Positions 4,165 through 8,126 of a stretch of 64,000 nucleotides of DNA are shown piece after piece. A program made the translations under genes and the position numbers. The stretch is from the NCBI GenBank assembly GCA_041664225.1, contig JBAYLE010000003.1, positions 15,608 through 79,607 of the forward strand, given 5' to 3'. How positions within the stretch are numbered: the first letter of the stretch is position 1; every line of letters begins with the position of its first letter. Source of the DNA: Parcubacteria group bacterium (GTDB taxonomy: Bacteria; Patescibacteriota; Minisyncoccia; Moranbacterales; UBA2206). Below the pieces are notes generated by a model that saw only the letters and a list, made by a program, of their open reading frames with translations, did no database searches and was not told where the DNA came from.

Positions 4165-4237
4165 GCGCTTATAGCTCAGTGGATAGAGCGTCTGGTTGCG
4201 GTCCAGAAGGTCGCAGGTTCGATTCCTGCTAAGCGCA
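4165..4237 (+). tRNA. tRNA-Arg (anticodon read as GCG; assignment moderately certain)
   Basis: Cloverleaf gcgctta/taagcgc, D-arm gctcagtggatagagc, anticodon stem tctgg/ccaga with loop ttGCGgt, T-arm gcaggttcgattcctgc. Confidence 0.7.
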
Positions 4238-4320
4238 CTAAAGTGTTCCTGCTCGCTTCGATTCGACAAAATGTCTCATCGAGTCGAAGCTAGCTAAGCG
4301 CATAAATTACACTTATCACT

Positions 4321-5439
4321 ATGCAAAAAAACGGCTTAAGAACTTGGGTTGAGATTGATAAAAAAGCTATTCGCCATAATTATCAAATTTTCCGCTCTCA
4401 AATCGGCAAAAAATGCCAACTCATGTCGGTCGTAAAATCAAACGCTTATGGCCACTCCCTTTTGAACTTTTCGAAAGAAATGGAAAAGCTTGGTGTTGAT
4501 TGGTTGGGCGTTGATTCGATCGTTGAAGGCGAAGCTTTGCGAAAAGAAAAAATATCTCCCAAAATTCTTGTGCTGGGGCATACTCTTCCGGAAAAAATTA
4601 CGAGTGCGATTGAAAACCGCTTGAGCCTCACCGTTTCCACTCTTGAAAATCTCAAAAATATTCTCCGCCATAAAACGGCAAAGAAAATCAAGATTCATTT
4701 AAAAATTGATACCGGCATGCACCGCCAGGGTTTTTTTATTCAGGATCTTAAAAAAGCCATCCATCTTCTCAAAAAAAATAAGGACTTTATTGAAGTCGAA
4801 GGCATATACACGCATTTCGCCGCCGCCAAAAATCCATCCTTCCCAAAAGACACGCAAACCCAACTGGCAGAATTTGAAGAAGCGGTGACGCTAGTAAGAT
4901 CAGCTGGCTTCAATCCCATCCGTCACGCTGCCGCCACTTCCGGTACTTTGCTTTTTCCGAAGTCTCATTTTGACATGGTACGGGTCGGCATTGGCCTTTA
5001 CGGTCTGTGGCCATCCAAAGAAACTGAAGCTTCTGTGAAAAATAAAATTAAACTTGAACCGGTTCTGTTCTGGAAAACCAGAGTGAGTGAAATAAAGAAT
5101 CTGAAAAAGGGAGATCGATTGGGTTATGATTTTACCGAAAGAGTCTTGAGAAATTCAAAAATTGCCATTTTGCCCGTCGGTTATTGGCATGGCTATCCTC
5201 GCTCCCTGTCTTCTGTGGGCCATGTCATTATCCAGAACAAAGCCTGCAAGATACTAGGAAGAGTCGCTATGGATATGACGGTAGCGGATGTGACAGAAAT
5301 TAGAAATATCAAGTCGGGAGAAGATGTTATTCTTATGGGCAAAAATATCTCGGCGGATTACTTGGCGGATTTGGCCGGAACGGTCAATTATGAGATAGTT
5401 ACTCGGATTAATCCCCTGATCAGAAGGATTCTTGTATAG
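4321..5439 (+). CDS. alr: Alanine racemase
   Basis: PLP-lysine motif VVKSNAYGHS near the N-terminus; length and C-terminal beta-domain are typical. Confidence 0.85.
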   Translation: MQKNGLRTWVEIDKKAIRHNYQIFRSQIGKKCQLMSVVKSNAYGHSLLNFSKEMEKLGVDWLGVDSIVEGEALRKEKISPKILVLGHTLPEKITSAIENRLSLTVSTLENLKNILRHKTAKKIKIHLKIDTGMHRQGFFIQDLKKAIHLLKKNKDFIEVEGIYTHFAAAKNPSFPKDTQTQLAEFEEAVTLVRSAGFNPIRHAAATSGTLLFPKSHFDMVRVGIGLYGLWPSKETEASVKNKIKLEPVLFWKTRVSEIKNLKKGDRLGYDFTERVLRNSKIAILPVGYWHGYPRSLSSVGHVIIQNKACKILGRVAMDMTVADVTEIRNIKSGEDVILMGKNISADYLADLAGTVNYEIVTRINPLIRRILV

Positions 5440-5451
5440 TTTTAATGACGC

Positions 5452-5481
5452 CTCTTGACAAATTAACTTTTTTTAGTTATA
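5452..5481 (+). promoter_or_regulatory. Near-consensus sigma70 promoter (TTGACA-N17-TATACT) driving a ~500-nt unit with no convincing ORF
   Basis: cTTGACAaattaactttttttagtTATACTcat directly after the alr stop; the unit ends at the terminator at 5954-5987. Confidence 0.6.
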
Positions 5482-5953
5482 CTCATTTGAAAGTTGGAGG
5501 AGGTTCTATCTTCGATAGAGCTCATAGTTCTTTATAAAAGGAAAGGTAGGTGATGCTTTGTAATATTTTTTATAAGAGCGGGGGAATTTTCGGGGGGAAA
5601 TTTCCATGGAAAGGATCTACATGACACAGAATCAGATATTAAAAATCCCTGAAACACTTGTTTTGTCGTCCGGAGGAACGCACATCGCTAATGGATTTCG
5701 ACTTTCCAACAAAACCAGTGAATCCGGTCTGGAACAAAAAGAAGTGCGGTTAAAAACTCCGAAGGGACACAGGTGGGTACCAATTTGGACTTTGTACACT
5801 GGCTCCCAGGACTCTGTTCTGAGAGCTGCCGGCCTTTCGAATTAGCTTCTTTTTCTTGGGGGTGTGGCCTTAATACTATAGCTATAGTGCACACCCAGGG
5901 AAAGAAACAAGCAAATGAGTTTTATGCCAAATATTTCTCATTTGCTGATCCTC

Positions 5954-5987
5954 AGAGACGGTGCCCTCGACCGTCTCTTTTTTATTT
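5954..5987 (+). terminator. Rho-independent terminator
   Basis: agagacggtgccctcgaccgtctct hairpin followed by ttttttatttg. Confidence 0.8.
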
Positions 5988-6023
5988 GCCAAAAAATTAA
6001 GCGGGCTAGATACCAAATACCAG

Positions 6024-8126
6024 ATGCGATATACTATACTTATGATTACTCCTGAAACTTTATTGGCCAAAATCCCACGCGTCACCCCAAAATATCTGGG
6101 ACTTTTGGAAAAAGTCGGGATTATTTCCGTCCGTGATTTTTTGTTGTACTTCCCCTTCCGCTATGACGATTTTTCTCAGATCGTCCAAATTTCCGAAGAA
6201 TATATCGGCCAGACGGTTACTATTAAAGGAATTGTTAAAAAAACAAAATTGGCCAGAATTTTCCGCCGCAAAATGACCATTACCGAAGTTGTTATCCAAG
6301 ATGAATTTAACACTCCCCTCAAAGCCATCTGGTTCAACCAGCATTTCATTTTGGATACTTTGAAAGAAGGTGTTTTAGTAAGGCTCTCTGGCAAATTGGA
6401 ACTCAAGGGAAAATTTTTTACTATGACCAATCCGGCCTGGGAAAAATCTTCGCGCGAAGCAACTAATACCGGCATTCTAGTCCCGGTTTACAATGAAACC
6501 AGAGGACTCACTTCCAAGTGGATTCGCTGGCAATTGAAACCCCTTTTGCCGCTCGCCAAACAAGTTGAAGATCCGATCCCCTTTGAGATTCGCAAGAGAT
6601 TAAATCTTTATGATATCCAAACTGCGCTCCAACAAATTCATTTTCCGCAAAATCCGGAAGAGCTTTTGCGCGCCCAAAAAAGATTCGCTTTCGAGGAAAT
6701 GTTTCTGGTCCAGCTCAAGACTTTGCAGGTCAAGCATGCTTGGGAGAAAAATAATTCGCTTGAGATACTCTTTGACGAAAAGCTGATCAAAAAATTTGTC
6801 AGTGTCCTACCGTTCAAACTTACTGACGCACAAAGAAAATCAACTTTTGAAATTTTGAAAGATTTGGAGAAGCCCAAACCGATGAACCGCTTACTAAACG
6901 GCGATGTCGGATCTGGAAAAACTGTCGTAGCCGCGATCGCTTCTTTACAAGCGATATCCGCCGATTTTCAAGTCGCCATCATGGCGCCCACCGAAGTTCT
7001 GGCCAAACAACATTTTGAAAGTTTTTGTAAATTATTTGAAAATTATCAAATCAATATCGCACTGCTAACTAATTCGTATAAATTACTGGATGATAATAGG
7101 GTATCGCGTACTAATTTATTAGACAAGATCGAAACTGGTAAAATTGATTTAGTCATCGGTACCCATGCCTTGATTCAAAGGGACGTCAGATTTAAAAATC
7201 TGGCTTTGGTCATAATTGATGAACAGCATCGCTTCGGAGTTGCCCAACGCGCAGCTTTGCAGCAAGAAACTATGTCGATTAAGGACGGGGTACAAAAAAC
7301 GATCCCGCACCTGCTAACAATGACTGCCACACCTATCCCCCGCACTCTTGCCATTGCGCTTTTCGGCAGTCTGGAGCTGTCCATTCTGGATGAAATGCCA
7401 AAAAATAGAAAGCCTATTATTACCAAGATTATTCCGTCAACAGGACGCAAAGAAATTTATAATTTCATACGCAAAGAGATATCTGACGGCCGGCAAGTTT
7501 TTGTCATCTTCCCCCTGATTGAAGAATCCAAAGCTCTCACTGAAATCAAGGCAGCTACTGTGGAGCACGAAAAACTATCTAAAATATTCCCTGAATTCAA
7601 TATTGGGCTTTTGCATGGACGGCTTAAGCCGACTGAAAAAGAAAAAGTAATGCAGGAATTCAAGGAAAAGGAACTAGATATTTTGGTTTCCACTTCCGTA
7701 GTCGAAGTTGGCATCGACATTCCCAACGCAACCGTAATGATCATCGAAGACGCTGACCGTTTCGGTTTGTCGCAATTGCATCAATTCCGCGGCCGCGTCG
7801 GCCGGGGTGAGCATCAATCATATTGTTTTCTATTCACCGGTTCCGATTCGAGCAAAACCGCCGGCCGCCTAACCGCCCTTACTGAAAGCAATGACGGTTT
7901 CAGAATCGCCGAAAAAGATTTGGCTTTGCGCGGACCGGGACAATTCTTCGGAACCCTACAGTCCGGTATCCCTGACATCGCTATGGAAAATCTGAGCAAT
8001 ATCAAACTGATAAAATACTCCCGCGCCGAAGCGCAAAATCTTTTGAGCCTAGACCCTGAATTAAAAAAACATCCCGCTACGCAAGATGCTCTCCTGAAAT
8101 TTTCAGAAAAAATCCACTTGGAATAA
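6024..8126 (+). CDS. recG: ATP-dependent DNA helicase RecG. Start placed at MRYTIL, downstream of the terminator that overlaps the ORF-track start at 5961.
   Basis: Wedge domain, helicase motif I GDVGSGKT, motif II DEQHRFGV, motif VI QLHQFRGRVGRG. Confidence 0.85.
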   Translation: MRYTILMITPETLLAKIPRVTPKYLGLLEKVGIISVRDFLLYFPFRYDDFSQIVQISEEYIGQTVTIKGIVKKTKLARIFRRKMTITEVVIQDEFNTPLKAIWFNQHFILDTLKEGVLVRLSGKLELKGKFFTMTNPAWEKSSREATNTGILVPVYNETRGLTSKWIRWQLKPLLPLAKQVEDPIPFEIRKRLNLYDIQTALQQIHFPQNPEELLRAQKRFAFEEMFLVQLKTLQVKHAWEKNNSLEILFDEKLIKKFVSVLPFKLTDAQRKSTFEILKDLEKPKPMNRLLNGDVGSGKTVVAAIASLQAISADFQVAIMAPTEVLAKQHFESFCKLFENYQINIALLTNSYKLLDDNRVSRTNLLDKIETGKIDLVIGTHALIQRDVRFKNLALVIIDEQHRFGVAQRAALQQETMSIKDGVQKTIPHLLTMTATPIPRTLAIALFGSLELSILDEMPKNRKPIITKIIPSTGRKEIYNFIRKEISDGRQVFVIFPLIEESKALTEIKAATVEHEKLSKIFPEFNIGLLHGRLKPTEKEKVMQEFKEKELDILVSTSVVEVGIDIPNATVMIIEDADRFGLSQLHQFRGRVGRGEHQSYCFLFTGSDSSKTAGRLTALTESNDGFRIAEKDLALRGPGQFFGTLQSGIPDIAMENLSNIKLIKYSRAEAQNLLSLDPELKKHPATQDALLKFSEKIHLE

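What the first reader, a model, noticed from the sequence alone, without database searches (positions are those of the whole stretch)
5452..5990. Transcription unit of ~500 nt with a strong promoter and terminator but no credible ORF
A near-consensus TTGACA-N17-TATACT promoter at 5452-5481 starts a unit that ends at a textbook intrinsic terminator at 5954-5987. The only ORF is a 79-codon frame (5606-5845) with no recognisable features. It may be an ncRNA gene or a small-protein gene. I looked for RNase P RNA (GGAAAGUCCGGGC, ACAGAANCCGGCUUA), tmRNA (tRNA-like ends, tag ORF ending ALAA) and SRP RNA, and found none convincingly. If this lineage encodes these RNAs elsewhere, this unit is something else.
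Basis: partly seen in the sequence, partly recalled or inferred. Interest (0 to 1): 0.65.

Follow-up and report, generated by a model that had tools for sequence, protein, structure and literature searches.

The report
Small orphan protein gene, not ncRNA
The ~500-nt unit between alr and recG is a real promoter-to-terminator transcription unit, but it is the mRNA of a conserved 74-amino-acid basic protein of unknown function with long structured untranslated ends, not a non-coding RNA gene.

Summary
A TTGACA-N17-TATACT promoter (5455-5483) and a hairpin plus T-run terminator (5954-5984) bracket a ~496-nt unit in a Parcubacteria (CPR) genome.

The claim of "no credible ORF" does not hold. An exhaustive HMMER search found one homologue, P0188: 74 aa, 76% identical, no indels. 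It matches residues 6-79 of the 79-codon frame, so the start is ATG 5621.

P0188 lies on contig L092, which has the same layout: alr, promoter, leader, ORF, hairpin, terminator. Across the ORF, the window and L092 differ at 62 nucleotides, split 14/8/40 by codon position. pN is 0.14 and pS is 0.72, giving dN/dS of about 0.07. The other two frames give dN/dS above 1 and contain stops. All indels fall in the untranslated regions.

No Rfam family matches at E<=10, and ARAGORN finds no tmRNA.

The unit is a lineage-restricted ~500-bp insertion. Relatives with ~65% Alr identity have alr and recG only 86-167 bp apart. The first half of the 5' leader and the terminator are conserved, and the terminator shows compensatory changes.

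The protein (pI ~10) matches no Pfam, PHROG or PADLOC family. It has a borderline ungapped 52-residue resemblance to XdhB/CoxM FAD-binding subunits, which remains unconfirmed. The finding is ordinary and of low interest.

The parts
5455..5483 (+). Sigma-70-type promoter: -35 TTGACA (5455-5460), 17-nt spacer, -10 TATACT (5478-5483). The transcription start is inferred at about 5489-5491.
   Evidence: Matches 11/12 consensus positions. One of 8 such sites in the window. 28/32 identical in L092 and in L090. Promoter activity itself was not tested.
5490..5620 (+). 5' untranslated leader of about 131 nt. The first half (5484-5552) is more conserved than the coding region.
   Evidence: Leader A is 84% identical to L092 and 77% to L090. 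Leader B (5553-5620) is 71% and 58% identical and carries indels that are not multiples of three. Neither ATG 5553 (a 23-codon uORF) nor ATG 5606 is kept in frame in the relatives.
5492..5526 (+). Conserved 5'-proximal stem-loop. The inner stem is 5504-5510 / 5514-5520 (UUCUAUC/GAUAGAG) and the outer stem is 5492-5497 / 5521-5526.
   Evidence: RNAalifold on three sequences: five of the seven inner-stem pairs are invariant, and the other two stay paired through one-sided changes (U-G to C-G, U-A to U-G). The third loop base varies. A role in mRNA stability or regulation is inferred.
5582..5605 (+). G-rich leader hairpin (GGGAAUUUUC-GGGG-GGAAAUUUCC).
   Evidence: Present in the MFE fold. Kept in L092 with one double-sided change (C-G to A-U). 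Not kept in L090.
5611..5615 (+). Purine-rich SD-like motif AAGGA, 5 nt upstream of the start codon.
   Evidence: L092 has GGAGG and L090 has AAGGAG at the same distance from the aligned ATG. It is uncertain whether it works as an SD. Only 2 of 49 long genes in the window have such a motif, and many Parcubacteria lack the anti-SD (PMC9297842).
5621..5845 (+). Coding sequence of a 74-aa basic protein (pI ~10, 8.1 kDa): MTQNQILKIPETLVLSSGGTHIANGFRLSNKTSESGLEQKEVRLKTPKGHRWVPIWTLYTGSQDSVLRAAGLSN. The stop codon TAG is at 5843-5845.
   Evidence: Homologue P0188 is 74 aa, 76% identical, E=8e-29, and matches ORF residues 6-79. Comparison with L092: no indels, differences 14/8/40 by codon position, pN 0.144, pS 0.721, dN/dS 0.065. 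The other frames give dN/dS 1.8 and 2.7 with 3-5 stops. The codon-usage score is in the top 5% of spurious ORFs and the bottom 10% of true genes. AF2 pLDDT is 65.7 against 54.1 for an antisense control.
5847..5906 (+). 3'-UTR hairpin HP1: a long stem with a variable apex.
   Evidence: The 3' region 5846-5990 folds with z = -5.8. In L092 both stem segments keep pairing through one-sided changes, while 9 nt of the apex are deleted.
5910..5946 (+). 3'-UTR hairpin HP2: a 10-bp perfect stem, AGCAAAUGAG/CUCAUUUGCU.
   Evidence: Found. It is not conserved in L092, so it is probably dispensable.
5954..5984 (+). Intrinsic terminator: 9-bp stem at 5954-5978, 7-nt loop, T-run at 5979-5984.
   Evidence: Found. 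In L092 two pairs changed on both sides (G-C to A-U, U-A to C-G) and the T-run is identical.

Best explanation
This is a monocistronic small-protein gene. A near-consensus sigma-70 promoter starts a transcript of about 496 nt at about 5490.

The first ~131 nt are an untranslated leader. Its 5'-proximal stem-loop (5492-5526) and its first ~70 nt are under nucleotide-level constraint. The most likely role of this region is to protect the mRNA's 5' end or to control its translation (inferred).

Translation starts at AUG 5621 and yields a 74-residue, hydrophilic, basic protein. Its C-terminal 41 residues are almost invariant (36/41) and form the functional core. The predicted fold is a three-stranded beta-meander followed by a short helix.

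The transcript ends at an intrinsic terminator (5954-5984), preceded by a conserved 3'-UTR hairpin that probably acts as a barrier to 3' exonucleases (inferred).

The gene is a ~500-bp insertion between alr and recG. It is found only in a narrow, roughly genus-level Parcubacteria clade.

The biochemical role of the protein is not established. My best guess is a lineage-specific accessory protein that binds a nucleic acid or a partner protein. It may descend from the central beta-hairpin segment of a PCMH-type FAD-binding domain of the XdhB/CoxM kind.
For: Shown:
- The promoter and terminator match consensus and are conserved in relatives, the terminator with compensatory changes.
- An exhaustive HMMER search of 1.84e9 representatives finds one full-length homologue: 74 aa, 76% identity, aligned to ORF residues 6-79.
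- Its contig L092 has the same layout after an 86%-identical alr.
- The 225-nt frame has no indels and 62 differences split 14/8/40 by codon position. Chi-square against a uniform split is 28, p about 8e-7, computed by hand from the counts.
- pN is 0.144 and pS is 0.721, giving dN/dS 0.065. For the neighbouring alr the value is 0.098. The other two frames give dN/dS above 1 and contain stops.
- All indels lie in the UTRs: 7 gap columns in the leader and 24 in the 3' UTR.
- L090 (Alr 85% identical) lacks an ATG at the positions of 5553 and 5606, but has an SD-like motif plus ATG aligned to 5621, with an in-frame stop 30 nt upstream.
- ORF length is significant at p = 0.028 against shuffles, and the codon-usage score is in the top 5% of spurious ORFs.
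- AF2 single-sequence prediction places 45 residues at pLDDT 70-90, against 7 for an antisense control.
- The unit is an insertion: relatives L005-L008 have alr and recG 86-167 bp apart.
- Leader A is 84% and 77% identical to the relatives, compared with 47% identity at third codon positions of the ORF and 62% at those of alr.
Against: - Only two full sequences and one 8-codon fragment of the family exist, so the selection test rests on a single pairwise comparison with saturated dS.
- The codon-usage score falls in the lowest 10% of genuine gene windows.
- The genome's other genes almost never use an SD or a long leader, so how this AUG is recognised is unclear.
- No expression or proteomic data are available.
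Confidence: 0.9

Rival explanations
1. A non-coding RNA gene of about 500 nt. The RNA itself is the product and the ORF is accidental.
For: - The region folds better than shuffles: z = -2.6 overall and z = -5.8 for the 3' part.
- Leader A is more conserved than the ORF.
- Hairpins keep their pairing in relatives.
- The ORF has no recognisable domain.
Against: - No Rfam family matches, even at E<=10.
- The central 225 nt evolve as a coding sequence: 14/8/40 by codon position, dN/dS 0.065, no indels, start and stop kept.
- At 72%, nucleotide identity there is lower than in the leader, the opposite of what a structured RNA core would show.
- All indels lie outside the frame.
Confidence: 0.03
2. 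A dual-function transcript. It is an mRNA for the 74-aa protein, and its conserved ~70-nt 5' leader (or a processed fragment of it) also acts as a cis-regulatory element or small RNA. One possibility involves the purine-rich boxes GUUGGAGG and GAAAGGYAGGUGA, which are complementary to a canonical 16S 3' end.
For: - Leader A is 84% and 77% identical to the relatives, against 47-62% at third codon positions.
- The hairpin stem is invariant and its loop varies.
- GAAAGGYAGGTGA is identical in all three sequences apart from the Y.
- Long leaders are unusual in this genome.
Against: - Only three sequences are available, with one double-sided covariation in the whole leader.
- No Rfam hit.
- The leader pattern occurs nowhere else in GTDB representative genomes except for one chance match inside an archaeal aldo-keto reductase gene, and nowhere in IMG/VR.
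- A 5' stem-loop acting as a plain mRNA stabiliser explains the same data.
Confidence: 0.15
3. A decaying remnant of a larger gene for a PCMH-type FAD-binding subunit (XdhB/CoxM family). Under this reading it is a pseudogene fragment and not a functional small protein.
For: - There is an ungapped 52-residue alignment to E. coli XdhB residues 103-154: 25-29% identity, pairwise E of 2e-7 and 3e-6, and 0 of 5000 shuffles reaching the score.
- P0188 hits the NCBIfam XdhB models at E = 2.7e-4.
- hhalign against a 4-sequence family segment gives 44% probability.
Against: - Purifying selection on the frame is as strong as on alr.
- The unit has its own conserved promoter, start, stop and terminator.
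- There is no residual similarity to XdhB in the flanks, and no XdhB-like sequence elsewhere in the window.
- Pfam FAD_binding_5 does not hit at E<=10, and a PDB profile search finds no family member.
- The GG motif is not kept between the two family members (GG versus EG).
Confidence: 0.04

Closest known systems
Lineage-restricted ('orphan') small protein genes of CPR/Patescibacteria genomes. This one is annotated in NCBI as hypothetical protein WCX17_01755 (MFA6383129.1).
   Same: It is a short ORF with its own promoter and terminator, has no domain assignment, is confined to a narrow clade, and is already called as a CDS in one public annotation.
   Different: Here coding status is shown by a selection test rather than by gene calling alone. 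The annotated start (79 aa) is probably 5 codons too far upstream. The gene carries an unusually long, conserved leader for this genome.
FAD-binding subunits of molybdenum hydroxylases (XdhB, CoxM/CutM, NdhF; Pfam FAD_binding_5, PCMH-type fold).
   Same: Residues 10-61 align without gaps to XdhB 103-154. This includes the family-wide pattern v.l.sP.G.R.vPi..f.tG.
   Different: The protein is 74 aa instead of ~290. It lacks the N-terminal FAD-binding subdomain and the C-terminal domain. Pfam and PDB profile searches do not support the link. The fold searches do not recover the family. No partner subunits lie nearby.
   Same: Similar length, a strong promoter, a terminator and a stable predicted structure.
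   Different: No covariance-model match even at E<=10, and no tRNA-like ends or tag ORF. The core evolves as coding sequence.
5'-terminal stabiliser stem-loops of bacterial mRNAs, for example the E. coli ompA and B. subtilis aprE leaders (from general knowledge, not tested here).
   Same: A conserved hairpin lies within a few nucleotides of the inferred transcription start of a long leader.
   Different: There is no sequence relationship, and the stabilising role here is only inferred.

Membership tests
Protein-coding gene (small protein) | The reading frame is kept in relatives: same length, no frameshifting indels, start and stop conserved. | tested here: met
   The window and L092 each have 74 codons, with 0 gap columns in 225 nt and ATG and TAG aligned. 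The UTRs carry 7 and 24 gap columns.
Protein-coding gene (small protein) | An excess of third-position and synonymous change, with dN/dS well below 1 in this frame only. | tested here: met
   Differences fall 14/8/40 by codon position. pN is 0.144, pS is 0.721 and dN/dS is 0.065. Frames +1 and +2 give 1.76 and 2.71 and contain 3-5 stops.
Protein-coding gene (small protein) | Evidence of translation (ribosome profiling, peptides). | not testable with these tools
   No expression data are available for this uncultured organism.
Known ncRNA families (RNase P RNA, tmRNA, SRP RNA, 6S RNA and all 4227 Rfam 15 models) | A covariance-model match at the gathering score. | tested here: not met
   The only gathering-score hits in the window are tRNAs. 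The best hit in 5300-6150 at E<=10 is a 18-bit match to a eukaryotic lncRNA model. The same holds in L090 and L092. ARAGORN finds no tmRNA.
Pfam FAD_binding_5 / XdhB-CoxM flavoprotein subunits | A match to the family HMM above the curated cut-off. | tested here: not met
   There is no Pfam hit at E<=10. The NCBIfam XdhB models score 20 bits against cut-offs of 287-310, and only for P0188.
Pfam FAD_binding_5 / XdhB-CoxM flavoprotein subunits | A complete PCMH FAD-binding domain of about 170 aa plus the C-terminal domain. | tested here: not met
   The protein is 74 aa. Similarity covers only XdhB 103-154, and there is none in the flanking DNA.
Pfam FAD_binding_5 / XdhB-CoxM flavoprotein subunits | A conserved second double-glycine FAD-contact motif (T-x-G-G-N/D). 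| tested here: inconclusive
   The window has SGGTH, offset by one residue in the alignment. P0188 has AEGTH.
Pfam FAD_binding_5 / XdhB-CoxM flavoprotein subunits | Neighbouring Mo-pterin and [2Fe-2S] subunit genes. | tested here: not met
   The called genes within +/-10 kb show no such Pfam families. No other XdhB-like stretch occurs in the window.
Intrinsic (Rho-independent) terminator | A GC-rich hairpin followed by a U-run, with pairing maintained in relatives. | tested here: met
   9-bp stem and TTTTTT. Two double-sided compensatory changes and an identical T-run in L092.
Sigma-70-type promoter | -35 and -10 hexamers at 17-nt spacing, conserved in relatives. | tested here: met
   Matches 11/12 positions. 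Both hexamers are identical in L090 and L092, and 28/32 positions are identical overall. Activity was not tested.

The most novel reading that the evidence does not exclude
The 74-aa protein is a domesticated fragment of a PCMH-type FAD-binding domain (the XdhB/CoxM central beta-hairpin) that now works as a stand-alone small protein. Its unusually long, conserved, purine-box-containing leader is a new cis-regulatory RNA that allows internal initiation in a Parcubacteria lineage whose genes otherwise lack SD sequences and are often leaderless.
Probability: 0.12. Interest if true: 0.45.

Novelty: new member of a known kind. Interest (0 to 1): 0.18.

Why it matters
The main value is as a correction. 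A candidate novel large ncRNA in a CPR bacterium turns out to be an ordinary, if orphan, small-protein gene. This prevents a false ncRNA call and moves the annotated start codon from 5606 to 5621.

There are two minor points of interest. First, it is a clean example of a recently inserted, strongly promoted small gene under purifying selection in a reduced genome. Second, it has a long conserved leader in a genome that otherwise looks SD-less and partly leaderless, so it may be a useful test case for how such organisms start translation at internal AUGs.

Tried and rejected
- **Known RNA families.** Rfam at gathering score over the whole window, and at E<=10 over 5300-6150 and over L090-L092: tRNAs only. 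ARAGORN: no tmRNA.
- **Repeats or a mobile element.** No other copy in the window or in 89 loci. No terminal inverted repeats or target duplications.
- **Phage or plasmid origin.** blastn in distant mode finds no match in 50,697 phage and 72,556 plasmid records. No protein relatives and no leader-pattern match in IMG/VR.
- **Word-indexed protein search with the 79-aa ORF.** It returned only itself. The homologue appeared only in the exhaustive HMMER search.
- **The other four hits of that search (P0189-P0192).** These are long repeat proteins of unrelated kinds (ankyrin-type and others). Their scores are summed over 4-8 repeats, so I treated them as spurious.
- **80 recG loci from metagenomes.** None carries the element, and most lack alr upstream. 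The recG N-terminus protein search gave no relative closer than 66%.
- **uORF at 5553 (23 codons, ATGA overlap with the main start).** Rejected: the ATG is lost in L090, the frame is shifted by a 2-nt indel, and the uORF runs to 39 codons and overlaps the main ORF in L092.
- **Start at ATG 5606.** Rejected: it is TTG and out of frame in L092, and ATT in L090.
- **Other ORFs in the region (75 aa on +, 68 and 55 aa on -).** Their codon scores are typical of spurious ORFs.
- **GTDB representative genomes.** No protein relatives. The leader pattern gave one chance hit.
- **Contigs of P0002 and P0003 (Alr 85-86% identical).** Their DNA could not be retrieved.

Full report
**Setting.** The window comes from a Parcubacteria-group (CPR/Patescibacteria) metagenome-assembled genome. 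Identical contigs occur in JGI, ENA, Logan and NCBI data. The finding lies in the 602-bp gap between alanine racemase (alr, 4321-5439, +) and recG (6042-8126, +).

**Check of the observation.**
- The consensus scan finds -35 TTGACA at 5455-5460 and -10 TATACT at 5478-5483 with a 17-nt spacer, matching 11 of 12 positions.
- It also finds a terminator-like hairpin at 5954-5978 (9 bp, 7-nt loop) followed by TTTTTT.
- Only eight sites in the whole window, counting both strands, reach 11 of 12 or better.
- The 79-codon ORF at 5606-5845 exists.
- Rfam 15 gives only tRNAs at gathering score in the window. Nothing meaningful appears at E<=10 in 5300-6150.
- ARAGORN finds eight tRNAs and no tmRNA.
- The + strand RNA folds somewhat better than shuffles: z = -2.6 overall and z = -5.8 for the last 145 nt, which hold three hairpins.

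**The unit is a lineage-specific insertion.** Relatives whose Alr is about 65% identical (L005-L008) keep alr next to recG. Their gap is only 86-167 bp and holds just a terminator and a promoter. Eighty further recG loci from metagenomes contain nothing similar by nhmmer or blastn. Phage records, plasmid records and the rest of the window also contain nothing similar.

**Relatives that carry the unit.**
- L090 has an Alr 85% identical to the window's. Its contig ends 211 nt after alr, but it shows the same promoter almost unchanged and the same leader.
- The word-indexed protein search with the ORF found only the ORF itself.
- The exhaustive HMMER search of 1.84 billion cluster representatives found P0188. 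It is 74 aa, 76% identical, E = 8e-29, and aligns to residues 6-79 of the query.
- P0188 sits on contig L092 (1848 nt). This contig carries an 86%-identical alr, the promoter, the leader, the 74-codon ORF, a 3' hairpin and the terminator in the same order.

**The decisive test.**
- Over the 225-nt frame 5621-5845, the window and L092 align without a single gap.
- They differ at 62 positions, distributed 14/8/40 over codon positions 1/2/3.
- Nei-Gojobori estimates are pN = 0.144 and pS = 0.721, giving dN/dS of about 0.065. The neighbouring alr gives 0.098.
- Reading the same alignment in the other two frames gives dN/dS of 1.8 and 2.7, with three to five stop codons.
- All indels lie outside the frame: 7 gap columns in the leader and 24 in the 3' UTR.
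- ATG 5606 is not conserved. It is TTG and out of frame in L092, and ATT in L090.
- ATG 5621 is conserved in all three sequences. L090 has an in-frame stop 30 nt upstream of it.
- Weaker lines of evidence agree. An ATG-ORF of 79 or more codons on the + strand arises in 2.8% of shuffles. The codon-usage score of the frame is exceeded by about 5% of spurious ORFs, although it lies in the lowest tenth of true gene windows. AlphaFold2 without an alignment gives 45 residues at pLDDT 70-90 (three strands and a helix), compared with 7 for the antisense ORF used as a control.

That result has now been obtained.

**Anatomy of the transcript.**
- The transcription start is inferred at about 5490.
- The ~131-nt leader is not neutral. 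Its first 69 nt are 84% identical to L092 and 77% to L090. By comparison, third codon positions are 47% identical in the ORF and 62% in alr.
- With three sequences, RNAalifold supports a 5'-proximal stem-loop at 5492-5526. Five of its seven inner-stem pairs are invariant and the other two stay paired through one-sided changes. The loop varies.
- A G-rich hairpin at 5582-5605 is kept in L092, with one compensatory pair, but is not kept in L090.
- A 23-codon uORF from ATG 5553 is not conserved in frame, so I rejected it.
- A purine-rich SD-like motif lies 5-6 nt before the start in all three sequences: AAGGA, GGAGG and AAGGAG.
- Its meaning is uncertain. Only 2 of 49 long genes in the window have such a motif, and 14 of 49 have a -10-like box directly before the ATG. 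The literature reports that about half of Parcubacteria lack the anti-SD motif (PMC9297842).
- After the stop codon, hairpin HP1 (5847-5906) keeps its stems in L092 while losing 9 nt of its apex.
- HP2 (5910-5946) is not conserved.
- The terminator keeps its pairing through two double-sided changes.

I infer that the 5' stem-loop and HP1 stabilise the mRNA or regulate its translation. This was not tested.

**The protein.** It is 8.1 kDa, hydrophilic and basic (pI 10.0 in the window, 9.4 in P0188). Residues 34-74 are 36/41 identical between the two members. The N-terminal third is more variable and is predicted to be disordered.

- Pfam, PHROGs and PADLOC give nothing.
- No relatives were found in GTDB species representatives or in IMG/VR.
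- Each 90% cluster has a single member.

One lead emerged. P0188 hits the NCBIfam XdhB models at E = 2.7e-4. Both proteins align without gaps to E. coli XdhB residues 103-154 at 25-29% identity, and none of 5000 shuffles reaches the score. The alignment covers the family-wide pattern P.G.R.vPi..f.tG, which is also seen in CutM, NdhF and CoxM chains.

Profile-profile probability is only 44-48%. Pfam FAD_binding_5 and a PDB profile search do not support the link. The double-glycine motif is not conserved within the small family. No partner subunits are nearby. I therefore record this as a possible fragment origin, not as family membership.

**Verdict.** The unit is a real, strongly promoted, cleanly terminated transcription unit. 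It is the mRNA of a conserved, lineage-restricted 74-aa protein with structured UTRs. It is not a new non-coding RNA.

One public annotation already calls it a hypothetical protein, with a start that is probably five codons too early. The finding is ordinary. Two questions remain open: what the small basic protein does, and whether the conserved leader has a regulatory role in a genome that otherwise shows little sign of SD-led initiation.

Noticed in passing
window 4239-4303 (after tRNA-Arg 4165-4238); L090:1-180: Directly after tRNA-Arg(GCG) there is a second copy of the tRNA's 3' part (TTCCTGCT...CTAAGCGCA), interrupted by a hairpin. In L090 an outer tRNA-Arg-like gene is split in its T arm by an insert. 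The insert is flanked by inverted repeats (CACGCCCCGTCACTTAT / ATAAGTGACGGGGTG) and contains a complete tRNA-Arg. This looks like a scar of integration at the tRNA or an unusual tRNA insertion.
   Followed up: no
whole window; e.g. recG: TATACT 6030-6035, ATG 6042: Genes here almost never have an SD-like motif upstream: 2 of 49 long ORFs against a 12% background. 14 of 49 have a TANNNT box ending 4-10 nt before the ATG, which suggests leaderless mRNAs. This is consistent with the reported loss of the anti-SD motif in about half of Parcubacteria (PMC9297842). The 16S rRNA gene is not in the window, so the anti-SD could not be checked.
   Followed up: partly
L091:1244-1370: In a relative whose Alr is 71% identical, the same position after alr holds a different unit of about 110 nt: a TTGACA-N17-TAAAAT promoter, two hairpins and a T-run. 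It has no long ORF, no similarity to the window's unit and no Rfam hit. It may be a small RNA, or a leader of the next gene.
   Followed up: partly
window 47863 (+) and 61730 (-): Two perfect 12/12 promoters share the same extended motif, TTGACAAAA...TTTTGGGTGTATAAT, including a TG-extended -10. What they drive was not examined.
   Followed up: no
window 5606-5845: The public annotation (NCBI MFA6383129.1, WCX17_01755) and one Logan gene call give a 79-aa product. Comparison with the homologue indicates a 74-aa product starting at ATG 5621.
   Followed up: yes
window 5439-5455: alr has no terminator of its own here, because the unit's -35 box begins 16 nt after the alr stop codon. Relatives without the unit have a hairpin terminator directly after alr. 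alr transcripts may therefore read through into the unit and end at its terminator.
   Followed up: no
L092:122-1288: The Alr of L092 carries an insertion of about 16 residues (around GSVHPVKSGEAGAKLFNSVN) relative to the window's Alr. The proteins are 388 and 372 aa.
   Followed up: no
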